NCBI GenBank assembly: GCA_964510425.1
Contig: CAZEBH010000001.1
Coordinates: 1-31,654, forward strand
From: an uncultured archaeon
GTDB taxonomy: Archaea > Iainarchaeota > Iainarchaeia > Iainarchaeales > Iainarchaeaceae
Length of the DNA stretch: 31,654 bases
Direction of reading: 5' to 3'
In this document: one piece after another, positions 1-10,431 of the stretch
How positions within the stretch are numbered: position 1 is the first letter of the stretch
Layout of the letters: every line of letters begins with the position of its first letter
The notes under the pieces: generated by a model
The model's database searches: none
Told to the model about the DNA's origin: nothing
Seen by the model: the letters and a program-made list of their open reading frames with translations, nothing else
Program-made: the position numbers and the translations under genes

Positions 1-3
1 GTA

Positions 4-960
4 ATGGATGCTCATGGAGAGTACCGTTCGCTTGCCGAACCCACAACAGATAAGCGGTATGCGGATTTTTCCTCACAGTCGCGTTTCATAAGGGCAAGCG
101 AAGTGCATATCGGCGTTCCAAAACTCTCAGCAGGTTTGATTGCAAGCATTCTTCCGGGAATTTCATCCCCGCAGAAGCGGGATTTGGGCAGGGTTTTGGA
201 AAAGCTGCGCCGCGAGATGAAAGATGGCATGGGTCCGTTTGATTTTGCCTCAGTGCGGGAGGAAATAAATCGCGACAGCGAAATAAAGAGCTCTACAAAG
301 GATTCTCTCATCGGATGGATTTTATCGCTTGAGCAGATTGGTCTCTTTGGCAAGACAGATAACCCAAGCATCAACGACCTTGTCCGGCCGGGGCAGCTTA
401 CAATTGTTGATTTGAGTGATGTAGTTGATATGCGAAAAAAACAGATTATTGTCGCGTATTTTGCAAAAAAACTTTTTGACGAGCGCAGGCAGAAGCGCAT
501 TCCGCCATTTACCATGGTAATTGAGGAGGCTCACCAGTTCGCGCGCGAGAAGGCTTCGCAGGAAAATGCGATTTCAAAATGGATTATAGAAACCATTGCG
601 CGCGAGGGCAGAAAGTTTGGTGCGGGTATTTGCCTGGTTTCCCAGCGTCCCGTGAACCTTTCCACAACCGCGCTGAGCCAGTGCAACACGCACATTATCC
701 TGCGCGTGACAAATCCCTATGATTTGAAGCACATCGGAGAAACAAGCGAAGGTCTTGACAATCGCAGCATTGACATGATAACTTCGCTGCGAACAGGCGA
801 AGCGCTAATTGTCGGAGAAGCGGTGAACTACCCGTGTTTTTTTAAGGTTCGAAAGAGGCTCTCGCAGGAATCGCGGCACGAATCAACGCTTGAAAGGGCG
901 GCGCTTGATTTCGAGGAGGCAAAAGATGCGTCTTCAAAGGACATTTCAGATTTGCTCTAA
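4..960 (+). CDS. herA: HerA/FtsK-family ATPase (DNA double-strand-break repair helicase HerA-like), 5'-partial
   Basis: DAHGEY (DxHGEY), Walker B VIEEAHQF, REGRKFG and VSQRP motifs, followed by LSQCNT. The frame is open to the window edge and Walker A is not in the window. Confidence 0.85.
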   Translation: MDAHGEYRSLAEPTTDKRYADFSSQSRFIRASEVHIGVPKLSAGLIASILPGISSPQKRDLGRVLEKLRREMKDGMGPFDFASVREEINRDSEIKSSTKDSLIGWILSLEQIGLFGKTDNPSINDLVRPGQLTIVDLSDVVDMRKKQIIVAYFAKKLFDERRQKRIPPFTMVIEEAHQFAREKASQENAISKWIIETIAREGRKFGAGICLVSQRPVNLSTTALSQCNTHIILRVTNPYDLKHIGETSEGLDNRSIDMITSLRTGEALIVGEAVNYPCFFKVRKRLSQESRHESTLERAALDFEEAKDASSKDISDLL

Positions 961-974
961 ACACATTTAAAGCC

Positions 975-1001
975 TTTATAACAAAAATCAATGGTTATAA
1001 A
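975..1001 (+). promoter_or_regulatory. TATA box of dedA inside a perfect 8-bp inverted repeat (TTTATAAC-N11-GTTATAAA)
   Basis: TTTATAA at 975-981 is centred ~23 nt before the ATG at 1001. The second arm (994-1001) overlaps the start codon. Confidence 0.5.
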
Positions 1002-1618
1002 TGTTTGATTTGCTTGGCAGCATTGAGAGTCTTCTTACGAATTTTGGCTATTTTGCGCTTTTTGCAATTGTCTTTGCCGAGTCAGGACTTTTTTTCGGTT
1101 TTTTCCTCCCGGGGGATTCGCTTCTTTTTACAGCAGGGCTTCTTGCCTCAAACGGAATTCTTGATATCCGAATTATGATTATTGGGGTTGTGATTTCTGC
1201 AATTCTTGGCGATCAGGTTGGTTACTGGACCGGCAAAAAATTTGGCAGGGGACTTTTCAATAAGCCGGGTTCTTTCTTTTTTGATCCGGCGCATGTTGAT
1301 GAGGCGCAGGCTTTCTATGAAAAGCACGGAAAGAAGGCAATTGTAATTGCAAGATTCATTCCGGTGATTAGAACATTTGCCCCAATTGTAGCCGGGATTG
1401 CCGGCATGGAATACCGGGCATTTGTGATTTATAATATTGCGGGCGGTGTTCTTTGGGGTTCGACCCTATTGCTTGCCGGGTATTTTCTTGGACAAATTTT
1501 CCCGGATGCAGACCAGTACATCACCGGAATTGTCCTTGTGATTATTGTGGTTTCAACAATACCAATTGTTTTGGAATTTCTAAAGCGGCTCAAGAAGAAC
1601 AGGCAGATGAATTCATAA
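1001..1618 (+). CDS. dedA: DedA/VTT family membrane protein
   Basis: VFAESGL..GFFLPGDSLLF, GDQVGY and ARFIPVIRTFAP motifs plus hydrophobic helices. Confidence 0.93.
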   Translation: MFDLLGSIESLLTNFGYFALFAIVFAESGLFFGFFLPGDSLLFTAGLLASNGILDIRIMIIGVVISAILGDQVGYWTGKKFGRGLFNKPGSFFFDPAHVDEAQAFYEKHGKKAIVIARFIPVIRTFAPIVAGIAGMEYRAFVIYNIAGGVLWGSTLLLAGYFLGQIFPDADQYITGIVLVIIVVSTIPIVLEFLKRLKKNRQMNS

Positions 1619-1624
1619 TTTTCA

Positions 1625-1757
1625 TGCTGTGTTGCATGATTACGAAAACCAGACAAATTGACATTCAATGGCTTTGTCTTATGGCTTCAATTATGGCTTG
1701 ACCAATTATGGGCAAAGACAAAAAAGACATTTTTTTTGGGAATTGTGCAACAGGGCA
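1625..1757. mobile_element. MITE-like non-autonomous element, copy 1 (133 bp) with 9-bp target-site duplication TAATTTTCA
   Basis: Ends TGCTGTGTTGCATGATTACGAAAA and (reverse complement) TGCCCTGTTGCACAATTCCCAAAA. Flanked by TAATTTTCA at 1616-1624 and 1758-1766. Homologous to 6884-7020. No coding frame is conserved between the copies. Confidence 0.85.
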
Positions 1758-1963
1758 TAATTTTCAAATAAATCTTTTTGTGAAGCTGGTCCAACTTTGT
1801 GTTGGCAACATTTTGACAACCGGAGAAATAGGCTGATATTTCATTTGCCAAAGTGTTGGGCGCCCCATCCCGGCCGAAGGTTCCCGTGGTATGGGCATGC
1901 GGGCTTGGCACCGGCACCGAACTCCCTCCAAATCCTTTTTAAAGTCCGATTCGAACCTCTTGC

Positions 1964-3466
1964 ATGCTTCCAAGTACGCCGGTATTTCTCGGCACCCTCA
2001 CCTATGTTCCACAAAAGCGGCAGATAGTAGCGGAGTTCTCAAACCGCACAGAGAAATATTCAAAGCGATATTCATTTTTCCCAAAGATGTTTTTTCCTCT
2101 CCGTGGCATTTCACAAGAATCCTTCAGGAACGCACTTTGCGAATGCGACATGCGGCGCATAAAGATTGATTTCTCTACAAATACTGCCATCATTTTCGCG
2201 GCAACTTTTTCGGATTTGAAAAAAGTAAATAATCTTTTGGCAAAATTATTCGGTTTCCACTCAAATCTAATCGAACCTGAGCGGCAGTTCCTTTTGGGGA
2301 AGGGCTGGAGTTATTTCGAGCCTTTCTCATTTAAGGGCGGCGAACCCGCAAGGCTCGGATCGTTTGATTTTCCGGACATTATCCCGGAATATCTCTGCGG
2401 CTCTCTTGCCCAAAATGTTGCGGAGCTTCTTTTTTCTAACAGGCCGCTTGCAGAATCAATGGTTGCAAGGCTTGCAAGTTCACGCGTGCTTAGGGTGCCA
2501 TTGGTTGGCAGCGAACTTGAAATTTCCCCGGAAGAAATTTTTCTTGAGAATGTTTTCTTTGCAAGCGAAATGCCCCTGTCTTCCGGTCATAAAGCCCCGG
2601 GTCAAAAGCATGCCTTCTCGGGGCAGAGTGCAGAACTTGATTTTTCGCGGCTGGTTGCAATTGTTGCCGCACGCCCTTTCAACAACATAGGCTTCGAATC
2701 CATTGGCTGTGATTGCTGCAGGCCACTTTCGTTTTCAGAGAGAAATGTTCTGCCATCTTCGCTTGTAAAAGTGCAATTTTTTAAGGAAGGGTTTTACTTC
2801 AATTCAGTATCATCTGCCTGGACGGAGCATTACCACAATTCGCATGATTTTTCAAAAAGCCGCGAGCGCAGAAAACACGAGTATTTTTACCAATCATATC
2901 CCGTAGGCCCATTTGCGCGCGCAGAAGAGGGGGATGTTCTTCTTGCAGATGCGCTTGTGCTGCAGCAATCAGGGGACGTGGAGATTTTACAGGGTTCTGT
3001 TGCCGCTTGGTGCTGCTCAAAGCATGAGAGCCGCCTCTCACAAGAAATTAACATTCTAAAGGAATCGCTTTCAAATCTTTTGCTAACTCTTGAGTCGGAG
3101 CAGGTTTCACTTGTGGCTTCAAAAGGCCTCTTCTTCGCGCAGTCGCTTGATTCGAACCTGCAGGTTTTCTATTCAAGGGCGCTTTTGGAGGTCATGTCTT
3201 CAATACTTAGCGAAATTCCATCGGCACTAACCAATCCAAAAGCCCGGTTCTTTGACCCGCAAGTTGCAACCGCTTTGGAGTGCCTGAAAGGGAACATACA
3301 CAAAGAACTCGATTCCCTTGCATCTTCTTCCGGTTTCCAGCCAAGAGCCATTGGCAATTCCTCAAGTATTCTTGTCGACCACTGCGCAGTTCTCGGGGTT
3401 TTGAGGCATTTTTCGGAGCTCTACAATATCGGGAAGCCCTTTATCCGTGTAAAATCTGGCTTTTAG
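1964..3466 (+). CDS. Family-B DNA polymerase homologue, predicted catalytically inactive and truncated
   Basis: N-terminal YSFFPKMFF and EPERQFLLGKGW resemble the PolB N-terminal domain. LDFSRLVA...NNIGFESIGCDCC aligns to DFxSLYP...NISPET-CxCC. GFQPRAIGNSSSILV sits in place of GxxVxYGDTDSxFV. The protein ends shortly after the palm. Confidence 0.65.
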   Translation: MLPSTPVFLGTLTYVPQKRQIVAEFSNRTEKYSKRYSFFPKMFFPLRGISQESFRNALCECDMRRIKIDFSTNTAIIFAATFSDLKKVNNLLAKLFGFHSNLIEPERQFLLGKGWSYFEPFSFKGGEPARLGSFDFPDIIPEYLCGSLAQNVAELLFSNRPLAESMVARLASSRVLRVPLVGSELEISPEEIFLENVFFASEMPLSSGHKAPGQKHAFSGQSAELDFSRLVAIVAARPFNNIGFESIGCDCCRPLSFSERNVLPSSLVKVQFFKEGFYFNSVSSAWTEHYHNSHDFSKSRERRKHEYFYQSYPVGPFARAEEGDVLLADALVLQQSGDVEILQGSVAAWCCSKHESRLSQEINILKESLSNLLLTLESEQVSLVASKGLFFAQSLDSNLQVFYSRALLEVMSSILSEIPSALTNPKARFFDPQVATALECLKGNIHKELDSLASSSGFQPRAIGNSSSILVDHCAVLGVLRHFSELYNIGKPFIRVKSGF

Positions 3467-3659
3467 CGGTGTGCAGTTTGTCCTAAAATGCCAACTGCCC
3501 AACAGGCACCTGCCAATCGGAAGGCGCATATTTTGGATATTGGATGTGGCAGTCCGGTTGGCCAGATTTGGCTCCGGGCTTCGCAACTCCCCCCTGCGCT
3601 TTTTAAGGCTTTCTCTGGAAAGAATAATACTGAATCAGGCTTTTTTTAAAGTGTTTAAG

Positions 3660-3866
3660 ATGTCTAAACTTACGCGTTTTGAGGTAACCCGGCTCATAAG
3701 TGCAAGGGCTTTGCAGCTCTCACTGGGTGCTCCTGTTCTTGCAAAGGTTCCTAAAACCGCGAGTTTTATTGAGATGGCAAGAATTGAGCTTGAGAACAAG
3801 TCAATCCCCCTTGCGGTTTTGCGCGAGTTTCCTGACGGTCATGTTGAAAGATTAGAGGTGGCTTAA
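3660..3866 (+). CDS. rpo6: DNA-directed RNA polymerase subunit Rpo6 (K/omega)
   Basis: LTRFEVTRLISARALQLSLGAP motif. Start moved to the ATG at 3660; the ORF track's upstream extension is not homologous. Confidence 0.95.
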   Translation: MSKLTRFEVTRLISARALQLSLGAPVLAKVPKTASFIEMARIELENKSIPLAVLREFPDGHVERLEVA

Positions 3867-4061
3867 ATGGGCAAGGCTGTTCCGCAGAAAGTTAAAAGCA
3901 CGGCAAATGTTTTATTGCAAACTTACCCTGGCCAGTTGACCGGCGATTTCGGGCAGAATAAAAAATTCGTTGACACATTTGAAATGCCACTTAGCATCAC
4001 ACAGCGAAACCTTGTTGCGGGCTTTATCACACGAAAAGTCGCAAAGACAAAGAAGAACTAA
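3867..4061 (+). CDS. rps17e: 30S ribosomal protein S17e
   Basis: MGKA...DFGQNKKFV...QRNLVAGFITR pattern, 64 aa, abutting rpo6. Confidence 0.93.
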   Translation: MGKAVPQKVKSTANVLLQTYPGQLTGDFGQNKKFVDTFEMPLSITQRNLVAGFITRKVAKTKKN

Positions 4062-4088
4062 TTTTTCCAATAATTTTCCGCCTGTTTT

Positions 4089-6140
4089 TTAGCCGCCTTC
4101 CACTCTGGTTACTCCGTCCTTTTCCTTTTCCCGTTCAAGCGTGTAGAGTTTTCCCGATGCCGCATATTCCATTTCCTTGTCATGGGTTATTATGAAAACC
4201 TGCCCGATGATTTGGGGCAGGTGCGTTCGCATTGTTTCGCTCAGTTCCTTTACCGAATTTGCATCAAGGTTGTGTGTGGGCTCATCAAGTATAATCCATC
4301 CAAGGTTTTGCGTGAGCACGAGCGAAACCGCGATTCTCATTGTGAGTGCAACCGAACTGCGTTCGCCCCCCGAGAGTATGCCTTCGACGCGCGCCCACTC
4401 CCCATTCAGTTGCCTTGCCATTATTTCATAGCTGCCTTCCTCGACCATTATTTTTGCGGTGGTGTAATCGCCATACGGATAAATTTTTTGCCATATCTCG
4501 TCCATTGCTGAATTGATTGTCTCTATCATGGCGTAGCGCAGCTCCCCCTGCGTTGATTTCAGTGCAGATGTGAATATCGCGAGTTTTTGCGCCGCCTTTT
4601 CAAGTTCTGAGCACTCTTTTTCCCATTTTTCAATCTGCTCCTGCGTTTCCATGATTCTTCTGAGTGCATCCGCAAGCTCTTTTTGCAGCTCTTTTGCGGA
4701 ATTTATCTCCGCCCTGTTTTTTGCAGCCCGTTCGCGCAGGGAGTAGAACTGCTCCCTTTCCTTTGCAAGGGCCAAATCATCGAATTTTTCTTTCGAGAGC
4801 TGCTCGGCTATTTTAGCCAGTTCCTTTTCAATTGCCGCTTTTGACTTTTCCTTTTCCGCAATTTCAGAGCTTATTTCACCAAGGCGCTTTGCGCTTTCCG
4901 CGTCGCGCTGCGCAAGCTCCTTTTGCTTTTCAGTTTCGCGCAGGTTTTTTTCGCAACCTTCAGATTCCTCAAGCGCTTTTTCAAGCAGTTTTTCGGTTGT
5001 GGTTATTTCCTTTTGAATTTTTTCCTTCTCTTCCCCCAACTCTTTTTCAAGTTTTTCCCTGTCATGGCCTGCCATTGGCTTTCTGCACACGGGGCACCCT
5101 GCGCCAATCGATTTTGCATTCGCCATCCCAATCGATTTTGCATCAAGGCTGTTTTTTTGCGCGGCGCGTTTTTCCTTAAGTTCTGTCACTGTTTTGGCGG
5201 CACCTGAAATTTCCTTTTCCGCCGACTTTTTTTCAGCGCTGATTTTTGCGAGTTTTTCCGCCGCCTTTTCAAGCATTGATTTTATTTCTCCGGCTTGCGC
5301 GCCGCCAAGTTTTTGGCGCATCCGGTTTATCTCGGCTTTGAAAGATTCCAGTTTTGATTTTGCCCCGAGTTCTGTTTCAAAGAGAATCTTGTGCCCTTTT
5401 TCTTTTTGCTCAAGCTGCTTTACAATCGCCTGCTTTTCCGCGCATTCTTTTTCCGCTTTTTCGAGGGCGGCGGATTTCTCGTGCATCTCATTTTCCTTTT
5501 CCGCAATCCGTTTTGCCATTTTTTCAATTTCTCGCGGGTCGTTTTTACTTCTCTGCTCCGCAATGAAGAGTTTTTTGTCCTCCGCGGTTTTTTTAATCCT
5601 GTTTGAAAGTGTTGTTGCATTGTTGCGCACGAGTTCATATTTGTCAAGGCCCAAAAGCTCGTCGAATTTTTCCTTGCGCTGTGCGGGCGAGAGCCTGAGG
5701 AAATAATCCATCTGGTTTTGTTCGGAGTAGATGGCCCGGCTGAAGAGGTCATATGAAACCTCGAGAATTTCGGTTATTTTTTTTGTGACATCGGTTTGTT
5801 TGGGGCCGGCAATTGTTTTCCCGTTTTCCTTTAGCGAGCCTTCATTTATGCCGTTTCTTTTTACGGTTCTTTCAACGGAGTAGCTTTTTTCATTGTAGTC
5901 AAATTCCAGCCTCACAATGCTTTTGTCCTGTTTTATTGGCTTTGACATGATTGTTTCTTCGAGCGAAACCTTGTGGCTGGCCTGTGATGGGAAAGTTCCG
6001 TAGAGTGCAAAGGAGATGGCATCCATTACAGCACTCTTCCCTGAGCCCATTCTGCCCACTATTACATTGGTGCCCATTGAAAACTCGAATTTTGTATCGA
6101 GATGGGTTTTCCAGTTCTGCAGTGAAATGGACTTTATCAT
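4089..6140 (-). CDS. rad50: Rad50/SbcC-type SMC-family ATPase
   Basis: Walker A GRMGSGKS, Q-loop SEQNQ, coiled coil with central CPVC zinc hook, signature LSGGE, Walker B ILDEPT, H-loop ITHD. Confidence 0.9.
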   Translation of the reverse strand: MIKSISLQNWKTHLDTKFEFSMGTNVIVGRMGSGKSAVMDAISFALYGTFPSQASHKVSLEETIMSKPIKQDKSIVRLEFDYNEKSYSVERTVKRNGINEGSLKENGKTIAGPKQTDVTKKITEILEVSYDLFSRAIYSEQNQMDYFLRLSPAQRKEKFDELLGLDKYELVRNNATTLSNRIKKTAEDKKLFIAEQRSKNDPREIEKMAKRIAEKENEMHEKSAALEKAEKECAEKQAIVKQLEQKEKGHKILFETELGAKSKLESFKAEINRMRQKLGGAQAGEIKSMLEKAAEKLAKISAEKKSAEKEISGAAKTVTELKEKRAAQKNSLDAKSIGMANAKSIGAGCPVCRKPMAGHDREKLEKELGEEKEKIQKEITTTEKLLEKALEESEGCEKNLRETEKQKELAQRDAESAKRLGEISSEIAEKEKSKAAIEKELAKIAEQLSKEKFDDLALAKEREQFYSLRERAAKNRAEINSAKELQKELADALRRIMETQEQIEKWEKECSELEKAAQKLAIFTSALKSTQGELRYAMIETINSAMDEIWQKIYPYGDYTTAKIMVEEGSYEIMARQLNGEWARVEGILSGGERSSVALTMRIAVSLVLTQNLGWIILDEPTHNLDANSVKELSETMRTHLPQIIGQVFIITHDKEMEYAASGKLYTLEREKEKDGVTRVEGG

Positions 6141-6369
6141 GATATATCCAAAGTTGCCTGAAAGGGTTAAAACTTCATTCCCACGGGTCGCAGGTAATAA
6201 TAACCGCCCTTATTTATCTCGGAATTTTCATCAACAACTGGCGATGCAAGGTTATGATGGGGGGTAAATGTTTTGTGCCAAAGACAAGTGTATTTTTCCT
6301 TTGGGCAAATATGTGTTTTTGGTGCCGTGGCAATAAGAGAATTGGCATGGAGCTGATTTTGGTTGCATA

Positions 6370-6633
6370 TTAGAGAAGTGTCATTCCTTCTATTTCTGCA
6401 TCCTCAACTTCTTTTAGGGTTCCAATTTCCTCAAGGACCCTGTCCAATGCCTTTTCGTCCTTTGAATCAACAAGTATTCCGGCTTTTATGACTTCCACGC
6501 CAAAGCCAATAGGTTCGCGGCGTACATCCTTTACTGCGCCAGATTTTATGCCTTTAACGGCATTTACAGTTTCATCCAGTTTTTCCATGTTTTTGGCGTT
6601 TATTCGCACTATCAATAGAGTCTTATCTGGCAT
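6370..6633 (-). CDS. ef1b: Translation elongation factor aEF-1beta
   Basis: REPIGFGVEVIK motif, 87 aa, acidic C-terminus, typical Zn-ribbon gene neighbour. Confidence 0.92.
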   Translation of the reverse strand: MPDKTLLIVRINAKNMEKLDETVNAVKGIKSGAVKDVRREPIGFGVEVIKAGILVDSKDEKALDRVLEEIGTLKEVEDAEIEGMTLL

Positions 6634-6655
6634 GGAATCGACCTTGGATTAGGTT

Positions 6656-6808
6656 TTATGGCCCTGTGAAGTTGCATAAAGGGCACTTGTATGTGAGGCT
6701 CTGGTTTCGTGCGTGCAGGCTTCTTGAAATGCGTTCATTGCATCCCGGGCAGTGGAACTCCACGAAATCGTTCGTGAGCACCTTGTTTGTTGTAATGCAT
6801 GTTTTCAT
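6656..6808 (-). CDS. Small Zn-ribbon protein (HVO_2753/DUF1610 family), 50 aa, absent from the ORF track
   Basis: Hand translation MKTCITTNKVLTNDFVEFHCPGCNERISRSLHARNQSLTYKCPLCNFTGP. F.CP.C and Y.CP.C.F.GP motifs, conserved position upstream of ef1b. Confidence 0.88.
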   Translation of the reverse strand: MKTCITTNKVLTNDFVEFHCPGCNERISRSLHARNQSLTYKCPLCNFTGP

Positions 6809-6883
6809 GGTTTTCACTGTTTGTGGATTAGTATTCTTCCCCCAGCAACCTTTAAAAAGGTTGATTTGTGAATTGACGTGGGC

Positions 6884-7020
6884 GGCTGTGTTGCATGATT
6901 ATGAAAACCAGGTAAATCGGCCTTCAATGGCTTGCCTTTAGGGTGGTCCTCTAAAGGGCTTTGGCCAATTTAGGCAGCCAGACAAAAAAGACAAATTTTT
7001 GGGAATTGTGCAACAAGGCA
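6884..7020. mobile_element. MITE-like non-autonomous element, copy 2 (137 bp) with 9-bp target-site duplication GACGTGGGC/GACGCGGGC
   Basis: Shares 26/27 nt at the left end, AGACAAAAAAGACA and TTTTTGGGAATTGTGCAACA with copy 1. Flanked by an 8/9-identical direct repeat at 6875-6883 and 7021-7029. Confidence 0.85.
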
Positions 7021-7181
7021 GACGCGGGCAGTGAACTGTCAAAAGACCTAATTAAGAATACTTCAAAATCCTCCAGATATGGAGTTTGGAAGAAATTCGG
7101 CTTTTGCCCAGCCAATCTTTCGTTTGCGCAGAGAAAACTAATATTAAATAACGAACTTGACCCCAATAGCTTCTATTCTAA

Positions 7182-7252
7182 GGGCCCGTCGCTAACGGAT
7201 AAGCACCCCGCCTTCGAAGCGGGACATGAGGGTTCGAGTCCCTCCGGGCCCG
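7182..7252 (+). tRNA. tRNA-Arg (anticodon UCG), intronless, CCA not encoded
   Basis: Acceptor GGGCCCG/CGGGCCC plus discriminator G, D-loop GGA, anticodon stem CCCGC/GCGGG with loop CTTCGAA, T-arm GAGGG-TTCGAGT-CCCTC. AT-rich TATA-like ATTAAATA at ~7143-7150. Confidence 0.93.
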
Positions 7253-7283
7253 CTGAACCCCTTTCTTTCCTTTACCAAGAAAG

Positions 7284-7387
7284 AAAAGCGTCCCTCGTAC
7301 CCTATGGGTACACAGGGCATGGCACCCAAAAGGGTGCAATGTCGCGGAAAAGAAAGTGTTAAAAGCGTTCGCGGAAAAGAAAGTGTT
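7284..7387. repeat. 27-bp tandem duplication whose first copy is interrupted by a 50-bp twin-hairpin insert
   Basis: AAAAGCGT at 7284-7291 and 7361-7368. TCGCGGAAAAGAAAGTGTT at 7342-7360 and 7369-7387. Hairpins GTACCC-TAT-GGGTAC (7297-7311) and GCACCC-AAAA-GGGTGC (7322-7337). Confidence 0.7.
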
Positions 7388-7394
7388 TGTTGAG

Positions 7395-8792
7395 TCAGTA
7401 ATCCAAAAAATCCTCTTCGCCCTTCAGGTACTCCGTGAGGAACTGCCCGAACTGGCGATTTTTTTTGTAAAGCGAAATTAGTTCCTTCTCATTCATTATT
7501 TTTGCTCCCTTGTTTAGCGCCTTTCTTATCCCTTTGCGTTCCTCTTTTTTTAGTTTTTTGAGAAGTTTTGCCAAAACAATTTCAATTTTTGTGTCCGCGC
7601 GCTCAACTTCCAGAACCCATTTCCCATTCTCAATGCGCGGTCCAGAGAGCGGCTTTGGGTGGGCGCCTATGAATGCATCAGAATTGTGCCGGTCTGTTGC
7701 GGGCGGGCCGGTTAATATTTTCGCTTTTTGCAGTTCGGTTGATTCAAGTTCAAGCACTATTACCATATGCCTGTTTTTCTCAAGCCACTGCGCCGAGCGC
7801 TTAACCGTAAAATCCGCGCCCTCAACCATCCCTGAAATTTTGCGCCCAAATCTTCGCAGCTGCCCCCACATGATGTCTTCAAGTACGCCTTTTGGATAGC
7901 CAAAGCTTATTGCCACAAGTTCGGTTTTTTGCAAAAATGTGGACAGTTTTTTCGAGCTCCATATTTTGTGCGGCTTTGGGAAGAAAAAATTGAGCGAAGA
8001 TTTTTTCAAAAATATGCGGCAGGCGGTAATGAATCTCGCGTACTGGTTTGCGGAGAGCGCTGCCGCCACATTGCGGTTTTTATCTACCGGATCCACGACC
8101 ACAAAATGCGTGCCGAATTTTTTCATCGCATCTTTTGTGTTCCAATAATTTTCAATATCGATTACTTCTCCTGATTCCCACCCTGCCGCCGCCCTGATTA
8201 CATTCCCAAACGTTCCATAGTTGAGGACAAGTATTTCCGCAACGTAACCCGGAAAGCTGTTTGTGCTAAGGTCGGCTCCGTAGCATTTCACTCCCTTCAT
8301 GAATTGCTTGAGAAGCCTCACTTCATCCTGTTGCCCCGCACTGAAATGCGTAAGCAAATACCTGTTGTGCAGCGCGCTTCTGTCCACCGCGCTTTTGAGA
8401 TTCTCGGCCCTTTCTATAAGGTATGCGGGAACTATTTCGACTTCAAACCCGCTGATTTGCCCGCGTATGTACGGGTGCTCCGAATATGCCTTTTCCCATC
8501 TGTGCCCGCGAAACACCGCCTTTCCTATTCGAAGCCCCTCACGTTCAAATTTTTCCCGTGCAAGCGAATCTGGGAAGAATACGAATATGTCAAGGTCATT
8601 GTCGCCGCGCAGGTGCGTTCCGCGCGCAAGGCTGCCAACAAGCTCCGCCTTTTTGTGCGCGCCGCGCATTGCCATTATTCTGGAAATTAGTTTTTGCGCG
8701 AATTTTTTTTCAGTGAGAATTTCCTTTTTTGTCGGTGTGATTTTTTCCATCACTTTTAATAAAATCTTCTTTTCCAAAACAATCACCGTCAT
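7395..8792 (-). CDS. cca: CCA tRNA nucleotidyltransferase (archaeal class I)
   Basis: VGSLARGTHLRGDNDLDIF nucleotidyltransferase motif, AEHPY-like SEHPY, VDPVDKNRNVAAA. Start codon uncertain (8819, 8792 or 8750). Confidence 0.95.
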   Translation of the reverse strand: MTVIVLEKKILLKVMEKITPTKKEILTEKKFAQKLISRIMAMRGAHKKAELVGSLARGTHLRGDNDLDIFVFFPDSLAREKFEREGLRIGKAVFRGHRWEKAYSEHPYIRGQISGFEVEIVPAYLIERAENLKSAVDRSALHNRYLLTHFSAGQQDEVRLLKQFMKGVKCYGADLSTNSFPGYVAEILVLNYGTFGNVIRAAAGWESGEVIDIENYWNTKDAMKKFGTHFVVVDPVDKNRNVAAALSANQYARFITACRIFLKKSSLNFFFPKPHKIWSSKKLSTFLQKTELVAISFGYPKGVLEDIMWGQLRRFGRKISGMVEGADFTVKRSAQWLEKNRHMVIVLELESTELQKAKILTGPPATDRHNSDAFIGAHPKPLSGPRIENGKWVLEVERADTKIEIVLAKLLKKLKKEERKGIRKALNKGAKIMNEKELISLYKKNRQFGQFLTEYLKGEEDFLDY

Positions 8793-8853
8793 TTTTGCGT
8801 CATTGTTTATATACTGCAAAATTGTATAATAACTAGCTTAATGGTGCATAAAA

Positions 8854-10431
8854 ATGGAACCTGTGGTTAACGAATTTCGCGGGCAAAAGGCTGAATCATA
8901 CGCCCGGACAGTAATATATGAGGGCTTCCCGTTCTTTTTTTATGATATTGCCGAACCAGTCCTTAACGATCAGGAAGGCGCTGTCAGTGAGGCTCTCACA
9001 AGCCTCATACTTGGCAAAATTGGCGCAGATGAACTCGAGTCGCGCTATGGCAGGCTTTTCCCGGTTGATTTTGTCATCAGGTTCCGCGAAAAAATCATAA
9101 AACCCATAACCTACAGCGAGGCACTCGAATATCTCATGCGCACCGAAGAGCTAAACGAGCTGCGCGTTTCACTGCTCTCAATTCTCAGGGAATTTTTCCC
9201 GCAGAGTGAGAACGCCGAAATCATGGCGGATATTATCCTTGACAATTCAATTGGCTATGGCAAGATTGCGCCGCTTCTGCGCGATGATGGCCTCGAGGAA
9301 ATAATGGTTAACGGGTATGAAAGAAGCGTGTTTGTTTTCCACAGGCGCTATGGCCACTGCAAAACCAACATTGACTATTCCAACAAAAAGTTTCTTGATG
9401 ATTTGCTGCAAAAGATTGCAAAATCCGTGGGCAAAAAAATAGATTCCGACCACCCGCTGCTTGATGCCCGGCTTCCGGATGGCAACAGGGCAAATTCCAC
9501 TTTCTCTTTTGTGACGCCCTTTGGTTCAACCCTTACCATAAGAAAATTCACCGCGGTCCCGCTTACAATAGTTGATTTGATAAGCAACAACACAATGACT
9601 TCAGAACTTGCGGCATTCTTCTGGCTGATGGTTGAAGGCATCGGGGTGGAACCGATGAATGCGATAATAATCGGCGGTTCGGGTACCGGGAAAACCACGA
9701 CCCTTAATGCGCTTTCTGTTTTCATCAGGTTTTCCGAGAGGGTAATTTCAATTGAGGACACGCTCGAATTGCAGCTTGGCAACAGGGACAACTGGGTGCA
9801 GATGGAAACGCGCCCAAAGCTCAAGGGGCAGGATGGCATAACCATGAATGATCTGCTAAAGAACGCCCTGCGAATGAGGCCTGACCGGATAATAGTCGGG
9901 GAGGTCAGAGGTCCGGAAGCGCAGACGCTCTTTGTTGCAATGGACACCGGGCACAAGGGCATTTTGGGGACATTGCACAGCAACTCGGCGCATGAAATGA
10001 TGCTGCGCCTAAAGTCCGAACCCATGAATGTTCCGGAAGAACTTGTCCCGCTCTTAAATCTTATAATTGTGCAGTACCGGGTGTATGCAAAAGGCGCCGG
10101 CTGGCAAAGGCGTGTTGTGGGCGTAACCGAAGTGACCTCAATGGAGCGCCAGGCGCTTATCAGCAGCATTTACGAATGGGACGCAAAGTCCGACACGATA
10201 AGCCGCACAGATACCCCGATGCATCTGACAGAGGTTCTTGCAACAAAAACGCTCAGGACCAAAAAGGATGTTGAAAAGGAAATGTTCATCCGCAAGAAAA
10301 TACTCGACTGGATGGTTTCAAATAAAATACGCTCTATTCAGGAGGTCGAGCTTGTTGTGCAGCAATATTACTACAACCCGGATTCGCTTCTCAAAAAAGT
10401 GCTCTCGGAAAATACGCAAAGCCCATTGTAA
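8854..10431 (+). CDS. Type IV pilus/secretion ATPase (VirB11/TadA/CpaF family), stand-alone paralogue
   Basis: EEIMVNG, DARLPDG.R, TIRKF, Walker A GGSGTGKTT, Asp box SIEDTLEL, LRMRPDRIIVGEVRG, His box TGHKG..GTLHS. Confidence 0.92.
   Translation: MEPVVNEFRGQKAESYARTVIYEGFPFFFYDIAEPVLNDQEGAVSEALTSLILGKIGADELESRYGRLFPVDFVIRFREKIIKPITYSEALEYLMRTEELNELRVSLLSILREFFPQSENAEIMADIILDNSIGYGKIAPLLRDDGLEEIMVNGYERSVFVFHRRYGHCKTNIDYSNKKFLDDLLQKIAKSVGKKIDSDHPLLDARLPDGNRANSTFSFVTPFGSTLTIRKFTAVPLTIVDLISNNTMTSELAAFFWLMVEGIGVEPMNAIIIGGSGTGKTTTLNALSVFIRFSERVISIEDTLELQLGNRDNWVQMETRPKLKGQDGITMNDLLKNALRMRPDRIIVGEVRGPEAQTLFVAMDTGHKGILGTLHSNSAHEMMLRLKSEPMNVPEELVPLLNLIIVQYRVYAKGAGWQRRVVGVTEVTSMERQALISSIYEWDAKSDTISRTDTPMHLTEVLATKTLRTKKDVEKEMFIRKKILDWMVSNKIRSIQEVELVVQQYYYNPDSLLKKVLSENTQSPL

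What the first reader, a model, noticed from the sequence alone, without database searches (positions are those of the whole stretch)
1616..1766. Unannotated MITE family: two ~135-bp copies, each with its own 9-bp target-site duplication
1625-1757 and 6884-7020 are homologous non-coding elements with near-identical ends and a variable hairpin-forming middle (CTTTGTCT/GGGCAAAG in copy 1; CCTTTAG/CTAAAGG in copy 2). The ends form imperfect inverted repeats (about 16/23 matches in copy 1). The flanking direct repeats are unrelated to each other: TAATTTTCA here (starting at the dedA stop codon) and GACG(T/C)GGGC at copy 2. That is the signature of two independent transposition events. No transposase is in the window. 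The end motif (GGCTGTGTTGCA / TGCCCTGTTGCA) resembles the IS6-family IS26 repeat GGCACTGTTGCA, but IS6 elements normally make 8-bp duplications, so the mobilising enzyme is unassigned. Mobile elements of DPANN-type genomes are poorly catalogued, so this may be an undescribed family (inference).
Basis: partly seen in the sequence, partly recalled or inferred. Interest (0 to 1): 0.8.

Follow-up and report, generated by a model that had tools for sequence, protein, structure and literature searches.

The report
Small IS5-type hitchhiker transposon (MITE) family
The two ~135-bp elements are genuine copies of a roughly 20-copy miniature transposon (MITE) family in a small archaeal genome, and its ends match an IS5-family insertion sequence found intact in a sister species, so this is a new example of a well-known kind of mobile DNA.

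Summary
Elements at 1625-1757 and 6884-7020 are homologous. Each has 17-18-bp terminal inverted repeats and its own 9-bp direct repeat: TAATTTTCA, and GACGTGGGC/GACGCGGGC.

The window's 1.2-Mb assembly holds 19 full-length copies (128-137 bp) plus 4 truncated ones. Twelve of the 19 have 9-bp duplications matching at 8/9 or better (8 perfect). None of 342 mismatched control pairings reaches 8/9. Same-genus species lack the element at both orthologous loci.

The "unassigned" enzyme can be assigned. The ends match (17/18) the ends of a 1,062-bp IS5-family insertion sequence with a 307-aa DDE transposase. That transposase passes the same NCBIfam model (NF033579) as ISAba12. The IS is intact in one same-genus genome. 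In this assembly it survives only as two decayed remnants, one with a perfect 9-bp duplication.

The IS6/IS26 resemblance is superficial, and no IS6 transposase was found. The closest known pair is MITEAba12/ISAba12: 113 bp, 9-bp duplication, end GGCTTTGTTGCACAAA.

There is no Rfam match, and only the terminal-repeat stem folds consistently. One extra finding: 17 of 19 copies lie within 60 bp of a gene's 3' end, often on the stop codon.

Verdict: a real MITE and a new member of a known kind, of modest interest.

The parts
1616..1624 (.). Left 9-bp target-site duplication of copy 1 (TAATTTTCA). It contains the TAA stop of the DedA/VTT gene.
1625..1757 (+). MITE copy 1, 133 bp, the younger subfamily (90-96% identical to the copies on contigs C3, C18, C20 and C79). 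Left terminal repeat about 1625-1641, right terminal repeat about 1741-1757.
1758..1766 (.). Right 9-bp target-site duplication of copy 1 (TAATTTTCA, 9/9).
6875..6883 (.). Left 9-bp target-site duplication of copy 2 (GACGTGGGC).
6884..7020 (+). MITE copy 2, 137 bp, second subfamily (closest to the copies on C16, C62, C90 and C102). It starts GGC rather than TGC. It lies in the divergent promoter region between a small zinc-finger protein/aEF-1beta gene pair (minus strand) and tRNA-Arg(TCG).
7021..7029 (.). Right 9-bp target-site duplication of copy 2 (GACGCGGGC, 8/9).

Best explanation
[quoted passage not shown] The window's genome is a 1.2-Mb archaeal MAG and holds about 20 copies.

Each copy is 128-137 bp and non-coding. 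It ends in 17-18-bp inverted repeats, TGCTGTGTTGCATRATTA and (reverse complement) TGCCTTGTTGCACAATTC. These ends are the binding and cleavage sites of a DDE transposase supplied in trans by a 1,062-bp IS5-family insertion sequence with near-identical ends.

Inference from family knowledge: the transposase excises or copies the element and makes a staggered 9-bp cut in AT-rich target DNA. Repair of that cut produces the 9-bp direct repeats.

Shown: copy number, inverted repeats, duplications, empty orthologous sites, and the end identity with an IS that carries a full-length IS5-family transposase.

Inferred: that this particular transposase moved these copies, and that they moved by cut-and-paste. 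In this assembly the IS survives only as two decayed remnants. The family may therefore be stranded now, unless an intact IS lies in the unassembled 11%.

Surviving copies sit almost only just downstream of genes, often on the stop codon. The most likely cause is an AT-rich target preference combined with selection against promoter or coding-sequence hits in a compact genome.
For: Copy number and ends: 19 full-length and 4 truncated copies in 1.2 Mb.

Duplications: 12/19 have 9-bp repeats at 8/9 or better, 8 of them perfect, and 3 more have repeats shifted by 1 nt. The control gives 0/342.

Empty orthologous loci: the dedA locus is empty in G001, G003, G004 and G005. The tRNA-Arg locus is empty in G001, G003 and G004.

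Patchy distribution: about 20 copies here, 2 full-length copies plus 1 gapped partial in one same-genus genome, one fragment in another, none in 38 other relatives. No hits in JGI metagenome contigs.

Partner IS:
- A solo terminal repeat on C68 lies next to an 84-aa C-terminal remnant of an IS5 transposase.
- Its best full-length relative is P0001, 307 aa, 72% identical to the remnant. It scores 203 bits on NF033579 (cut-off 140) and hits PF13737 and PF01609.
- P0001 sits in a 1,062-bp element with ends TGCTGTGTTGCACAACTC and (reverse complement) TGCTGTGTTGCATAATTC.
- An intact copy lies inside a contig of same-genus genome G003, with an 8-bp direct repeat.
- A 645-bp decayed derivative on C28 of this genome has a perfect 9-bp duplication, ATGGTTTCC.

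Link to the known family: the ISAba12 transposase hits the same NCBIfam model at 409 bits and aligns over its full length with P0001 (23% identity, E = 4e-18). ISAba12 and MITEAba12 have ends GGCTTTGTTGCACAAA and 9-bp duplications (PMC6382973).
Against: - No intact cognate transposase is present in this assembly, so current mobility is unproven.
- The only intact IS copy with readable flanks (G003) has an 8-bp repeat, not 9 bp, and the G006 MITE copies are ambiguous between 8 and 9. Assignment to the 9-bp IS903 group rather than the 8-bp ISH1 group is therefore open.
- Similarity between MITE and IS is confined to the terminal ~18 bp. The MITE is not visibly a deletion derivative of this IS.
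- No empty-site allele was seen in the source metagenomes, but only low-depth contigs were available.
- Four copies (C20, C29, C30, C90) have no recognisable duplication.
Confidence: 0.86

Rival explanations
1. An IS6/IS26-family MITE: the ends are recognised by an IS6-type (DDE_Tnp_IS240) transposase that works through cointegrates.
For: IS6 occurs in archaea and has two known MITEs (PMC7986276).
Against: No PF13610 match was found in the own genome, while the control genomes do give matches. IS6 family members make 8-bp repeats and are about 800 bp long with 14-bp inverted repeats (PMC7986276), whereas this genome's copies have clear 9-bp repeats. The same ends bound a 1,062-bp IS that encodes an IS5-family transposase, not an IS6 one.
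Confidence: 0.02
2. A structured non-coding RNA or regulatory repeat (a REP-like or terminator module) that is conserved for its function and not mobile.
For: The element folds better than shuffled sequence in some copies (z from -0.8 to -4.3). Both strands carry conserved T-runs (T5-8 and T6). 17/19 copies sit just after gene 3' ends, where a terminator would act.
Against: No Rfam family matches. Only the terminal-repeat stem is predicted consistently, and the internal folds differ from copy to copy (no covarying pair, whose alignment mixed strands; no common internal stem in the strand-consistent RNAalifold). Copy-specific 9-bp duplications and empty orthologous loci show insertion, not vertical conservation. 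Orientation relative to the upstream gene is 12 same to 6 opposite (my count), so there is no strand rule.
Confidence: 0.05
3. A MITE of this end type that is mobilised by a different resident transposase, for example the second IS5-family element split over contig ends C61 and C107, rather than by the G003-type IS.
For: The genome has another NF033579-like transposase gene that appears open where assembled. The cognate IS is decayed here, yet one subfamily is 90-96% identical, which suggests fairly recent movement.
Against: The sequence upstream of the C61 gene and downstream of the C107 fragment shows no TGCTGTGTTGCA-type end. Transposases normally need matching ends.
Confidence: 0.07

Closest known systems
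MITEAba12 with its parent ISAba12 (Acinetobacter; IS5 family, ISAba12/IS17 type), PMC6382973
   Same: A short non-coding element (113 bp there, about 135 bp here) with ~16-18-bp imperfect terminal repeats and 9-bp AT-rich target duplications. Similarity to the parent IS is confined to the terminal repeats. The parent is about 1.04-1.06 kb with one DDE transposase of about 307-310 aa. Both transposases pass NCBIfam NF033579. The ends are alike: GGCTTTGTTGCACAAA versus TGCCTTGTTGCACAAT, 13/16 by my count.
   Different: The host is archaeal, not bacterial. The transposases are only 23% identical. The ends start TGC rather than GGC in most copies. The internal sequence is unrelated. The parent IS is decayed in this genome. 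Duplications of 8 bp are seen at the intact IS in the sister species.
IS903/IS102 group of the IS5 family
   Same: 9-bp direct repeats (PMC10376468). An IS of about 1.05 kb with a single 307-aa transposase carrying DDE_Tnp_1. G/TGC-type ends with a TTG core.
   Different: Group membership could not be tested without ISfinder. The archaeal ISH1 group of IS5 is an equally possible home. From my memory of ISfinder, that group has 8-bp repeats and '-GC' ends.
IS6/IS26 family and its rare MITEs
   Same: A short shared end motif (TGTTGCA).
   Different: IS6 makes 8-bp duplications, is about 800 bp, has 14-bp repeats and a DDE_Tnp_IS240 transposase (PMC7986276). None of these fits, and no such transposase was found.
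Bulk-catalogued archaeal MITEs, including DPANN genomes (PMC11602168)
   Same: Small intergenic elements flanked by terminal inverted repeats, taxon-specific, and dense in some DPANN genomes (about 100-146 per Mb reported there, versus about 16 per Mb here).
   Different: I could not check whether this sequence family is in that catalogue, because no supplementary text is held.

Membership tests
MITE (non-autonomous IS derivative) | Small size (tens to a few hundred bp) with no room for a transposase gene | tested here: met
   128-137 bp, far too short for the 307-aa transposase. ORFs and stops inside the element were not examined separately.
MITE (non-autonomous IS derivative) | Terminal inverted repeats | tested here: met
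   17-18-bp imperfect repeats conserved in all 19 copies. They form the only consistently predicted stem.
MITE (non-autonomous IS derivative) | Copy-specific target-site duplications of fixed length | tested here: met
   12/19 copies have 8/9 or better at 9 bp, 8 of them perfect. The control gives 0/342.
MITE (non-autonomous IS derivative) | Multiple dispersed copies, with presence/absence differences between relatives | tested here: met
   23 loci on 22 contigs. Orthologous loci are empty in same-genus genomes. The family is absent from 38 of 40 relatives searched.
MITE (non-autonomous IS derivative) | Ends shared with an autonomous IS | tested here: met
   The MITE left end matches the right end of the IS at 17/18 (my count). 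The IS is intact in G003.
IS5 family (the partner IS) | Single DDE_Tnp_1-type transposase scoring above the curated family threshold | tested here: met
   NF033579 at 203 bits against a cut-off of 140, for P0001 and for the G003 copy. PF01609 at 93.6 bits, plus PF13737.
IS5 family, IS903 group | 9-bp direct repeats | tested here: inconclusive
   9 bp for the MITE copies and for the C28 derivative in this genome. The intact IS in G003 has 8 bp, and the G006 MITEs are ambiguous between 8 and 9.
IS5 family, IS903 group | Placement of the transposase with IS903-group members in the ISfinder classification | not testable with these tools
   The only available evidence is indirect. It shares an NCBIfam model and a full-length 23% alignment with the ISAba12 transposase.
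IS6/IS26 family | 8-bp direct repeats | tested here: not met
   9 bp in this genome. The rule is taken from PMC7986276.
IS6/IS26 family | A DDE_Tnp_IS240 transposase available in the genome | tested here: not met
   No PF13610 match in the 89%-complete assembly, although the control genomes gave matches. Absence from the unassembled part is not shown.
Known structured RNA family | A match to a curated covariance model, or a conserved fold with covariation | tested here: not met
   No Rfam match at E <= 1. Internal folds are not conserved and no compensatory pairs were found (the alignment mixed strands).

The most novel reading that the evidence does not exclude
The strong placement of copies on or just after stop codons (17/19 within 60 bp of a gene 3' end, 9/19 within 10 bp) may not be only a survivorship effect. 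It could reflect either active targeting of transcription-termination regions by this archaeal IS5-type transposase, or co-option of the element as a transcription terminator that works in both orientations, since both strands carry conserved T-runs. Such a role would be useful in a compact DPANN-like genome.
Probability: 0.12. Interest if true: 0.5.

Novelty: new member of a known kind. Interest (0 to 1): 0.3.

Why it matters
- It gives a clean, annotatable repeat family for this uncultured archaeal lineage: consensus ends, 9-bp duplication, a parent IS and decayed remnants. Gene callers and assemblers mishandle such repeats, and contigs in the source metagenomes break at these elements.
- It shows that an ISAba12/IS903-like branch of IS5 has spawned a MITE in small-genome archaea, with end sequences remarkably close to the bacterial ones.
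- The insertion sites are polymorphic between species, so they could serve as strain markers.
- None of this changes how MITEs are understood. The 3'-end placement is the only feature that might lead somewhere new.

Tried and rejected
- IS6 hypothesis: searched the own genome for PF13610 and found nothing. Rejected.
- Second IS5-family element at contig ends C61/C107 as partner: its flanks lack the repeat. Set aside.
- Rfam scan of window 1-9000 at E <= 1: only tRNA-Arg and a chance snoRNA-like hit.
- First consensus fold: I mixed strands, because genome-search loci are not re-oriented, so only its terminal-repeat stem is usable. I redid it with oriented copies and per-copy DNA folds. No conserved internal structure was found.
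- My own dinucleotide-shuffle script timed out. I used the fold tool's shuffles instead.
- Empty-site search in the source metagenomes: only Logan contigs at about 3-5x were available, and they fragment at the repeats. No joint skipping either element was seen. Inconclusive, not negative.
- Exact-pattern scan of JGI metagenome contigs with the right end: 0 hits.
- Genome-contig scan with the transposase: returned only the G003 copy.
- The NAR 2024 MITE catalogue supplements are not held, so prior cataloguing could not be checked.
- Earlier notes of this scan on this genome concern other features and did not bear on this finding.
- Taxonomy: only a weak hint of Aenigmatarchaeota from one protein's Atlas neighbours. 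The G003 record is titled just 'archaeon'.

Full report
OBSERVATION

Copy 1 (1625-1757, 133 bp) is flanked by TAATTTTCA on both sides (1616-1624 and 1758-1766). The left repeat starts at the TAA stop of ORF 1001-1618, which carries a VTT/DedA domain. Copy 2 (6884-7020, 137 bp) is flanked by GACGTGGGC and GACGCGGGC.

The copies align end to end at about 78% identity, with near-identical termini and a divergent centre. In copy 1 the first 23 nt match the reverse complement of the last 23 nt at 17/23 (my count). The core TGTTGCAYRATT is found at all four element ends, 5 hits in the window against 1.35 expected.

FAMILY SIZE AND TARGET DUPLICATIONS

The window is contig C1 of a 1.2-Mb, 129-contig assembly that is 89% complete. 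BLAST of both copies against the whole assembly finds 23 loci: 19 full-length copies (128-137 bp) and 4 truncated or degenerate ones.

I fixed the element boundaries from the conserved termini (TGCTGTG... ...CAAGGCA). With those boundaries, 8 copies have perfect 9/9 flanking repeats and 4 more have 8/9. Three more (C3, C62, C65) have the repeat shifted by one base, reading as 8 or 10 bp. Four show none. None of 342 mismatched left/right flank pairings reaches 8/9. The duplicated 9-mers are unrelated to each other and AT-rich.

Mean pairwise identity is 77%. One subfamily (copy 1 plus the C3, C18, C20 and C79 copies) is 90-96% identical, so it is the youngest burst. Copy 2 belongs to a second cluster with C16, C62, C90 and C102.

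INSERTION, NOT CONSERVATION

Among 40 relatives, the element is found only in two same-genus genomes. G006 has 2 full-length copies plus 1 gapped partial, and G003 has one fragment.

The locus of copy 1 is syntenic in G001, G003, G004 and G005. There the dedA homologue is followed by a short spacer and a conserved promoter-like block (TTGGCACCGGCA...CTTTTTAAAG), with no element.

The locus of copy 2 lies between a small zinc-finger protein/aEF-1beta gene pair and tRNA-Arg(TCG). It lacks the element in G001, G003 and G004. These species are only about 70% identical in DNA, so the exact single 9-mer cannot be read.

The G006 copies sit at other sites, with their own 8/9-bp repeats. The right-end motif has no exact match in JGI metagenome contigs.

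THE MOBILISING ENZYME

No IS6-type (PF13610) transposase is found in the genome.

A genome-wide scan for the terminal repeat outside MITE copies found solo ends on C18, C28, C6 and C68. On C68 the end lies 39 bp beyond the stop of an 84-aa ORF that is the C-terminal remnant of an IS5-family transposase (NF033579, E = 6e-12).

An exhaustive HMMER search with that remnant returned one full-length relative, P0001. It is 307 aa and 72% identical over the remnant. It scores 203.5 bits on NF033579 (cut-off 140) and hits PF01609 and PF13737.

P0001's contig carries a 1,062-bp element with ends TGCTGTGTTGCACAACTC and (reverse complement) TGCTGTGTTGCATAATTC. By my count, the MITE left end matches the latter at 17/18 and the MITE right end matches it at 15/18.

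Genome searches found the following copies of this IS:
- An intact copy embedded in a contig of same-genus genome G003, 88% aa identity, open frame, the same ends, and direct repeat AAATCGCA (8 bp).
- A copy with one stop codon in G017, which belongs to another genus of the family.
- Only remnants in this genome: the C68 right end, and a 645-bp decayed derivative at C28:10925-11569. The first 120 bp of that derivative are 80% identical to the IS left end, and it is flanked by a perfect 9-bp repeat, ATGGTTTCC.

Beyond the terminal ~18 bp, the MITE and the IS share no similarity.

COMPARISON WITH KNOWN SYSTEMS

tblastn of P0001 against plasmids hits IS5-family transposases named ISEc35, ISVa2, IS17, ISAba12 and ISRm33 at 23-28% identity over their full length. 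An ISAba12-family transposase scores 409 bits on the same NCBIfam model and aligns with P0001 at E = 4e-18.

The MITEAba12 paper (PMC6382973) describes a 113-bp MITE with 16-bp imperfect repeats and 9-bp AT-rich duplications. Its similarity to ISAba12 is confined to the repeats. It lists GGCTTTGTTGCACAAA as the end of ISAba12, IS17 and their relatives, which are all about 1,039 bp long with 9-bp duplications. The archaeal MITE's right end agrees with that motif at 13/16 (my count).

PMC10376468 states that 9-bp repeats are expected for the IS903 group of IS5. IS6 elements are about 800 bp with 14-bp repeats and 8-bp duplications (PMC7986276).

The IS26 likeness is a short motif coincidence. 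Whether the archaeal IS belongs to the IS903 group or to the archaeal ISH1 group stays open. From my memory of ISfinder, the ISH1 group has 8-bp repeats. The intact G003 copy shows 8 bp, and ISfinder is not available here.

STRUCTURE AND RNA

No Rfam family matches either copy. Per-copy folding gives z-scores from -0.8 to -4.3. The only stem common to all copies is the pairing of the two terminal repeats, and the internal hairpins differ between copies. The oriented alignment gives no consensus internal helix.

GENOMIC PLACEMENT

All 19 copies are intergenic. With a crude ORF map (ATG-initiated ORFs of at least 90 aa), 17/19 lie within 60 bp of a gene's 3' end and 9/19 lie within 10 bp, so the stop codon falls inside the duplicated 9-mer, as at dedA. 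The corresponding shares of background intergenic bases are 20% and 4.7% (binomial p about 2e-10 and 7e-8). The map is rough, so the p-values are indicative only.

Orientation relative to the upstream gene is 12 same to 6 opposite (my count). Copy 2 is one of the two exceptions, sitting in a divergent promoter region just outside a palindromic TATA-like box.

My reading (inference) is an AT-rich target preference plus loss of harmful insertions. A terminator role or active targeting is the less likely, more interesting alternative.

POPULATION DATA

Four rock-metagenome runs hold the locus, but only as low-depth Logan contigs that break at the repeats. No empty-site joint was seen, and this is inconclusive.

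VERDICT

The partner is identified as an IS5-family (ISAba12/IS903-like) IS rather than IS6. It is a new member of a known kind. MITEs in DPANN-type archaea have already been surveyed at scale (PMC11602168). Interest is modest.

Noticed in passing
G000 contig C28:10925-11569 (L030 about 1426-2070, minus strand): A 645-bp decayed, internally deleted derivative of the parent IS. Its left 120 bp are 80% identical to the IS, followed by a DDE_Tnp_1-like frame with 4 stops and a degenerate right end (...CAAGCA). It is flanked by a perfect 9-bp repeat, ATGGTTTCC. It looks like an intermediate between the IS and a MITE.
   Followed up: partly
All 19 full-length copies in G000; in the window, 1616-1766: Copies sit almost only just downstream of genes: 17/19 within 60 bp of a 3' end and 9/19 with the stop codon inside the duplicated 9-mer, against about 20% and 5% of background intergenic bases.
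   Followed up: partly
G000 contig C20:14200-14220 (L003 about 1636-1656): The right end of a MITE copy is directly abutted by an inverted solo left terminal repeat (reverse complement TGCCGTGTTGCATGGCTGTGC). This copy has no recognisable target duplication. It may be a nested or rearranged insertion.
   Followed up: no
G000 contig C18:9387-9404 (L031): A perfect 18-bp solo left terminal repeat lies about 20 bp from what looks like a tRNA gene on the other strand. Copy 2 in the window also neighbours a tRNA gene.
   Followed up: no
L069 1410-1445 (G017:C75): The IS copy in this other genus has a tandemly duplicated left end (a 17-bp solo repeat directly followed by the full IS) and one in-frame TAG in the transposase.
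   Followed up: no
G000 contigs C61:7332-8018 and C107:307-730: A second, unrelated IS5-family (NF033579-like) element whose gene has a CxxC-rich N-terminus. It runs off the end of contig C61. Its flanks lack the MITE-type ends.
   Followed up: partly
window 6848-6859: The palindromic TATA-like box CCTTTAAAAAGG, upstream of the zinc-finger protein/aEF-1beta gene pair, is conserved in G001 and G003 and nearly so in G004. The MITE landed about 16 bp outside it.
   Followed up: no
window 1893-1945: The block TTGGCACCGGCA...CCTTTTTAAAG, upstream of the 500-aa gene at 1964, is conserved in four same-genus species although the rest of the spacer is not. It is probably the promoter of that gene, or a longer 5' end.
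   Followed up: no
L060 about 1200-1500 (G003:C28): At the locus orthologous to copy 2, G003 carries a different, unrelated insert of about 190 bp between the promoter box and the region upstream of the tRNA.
   Followed up: no
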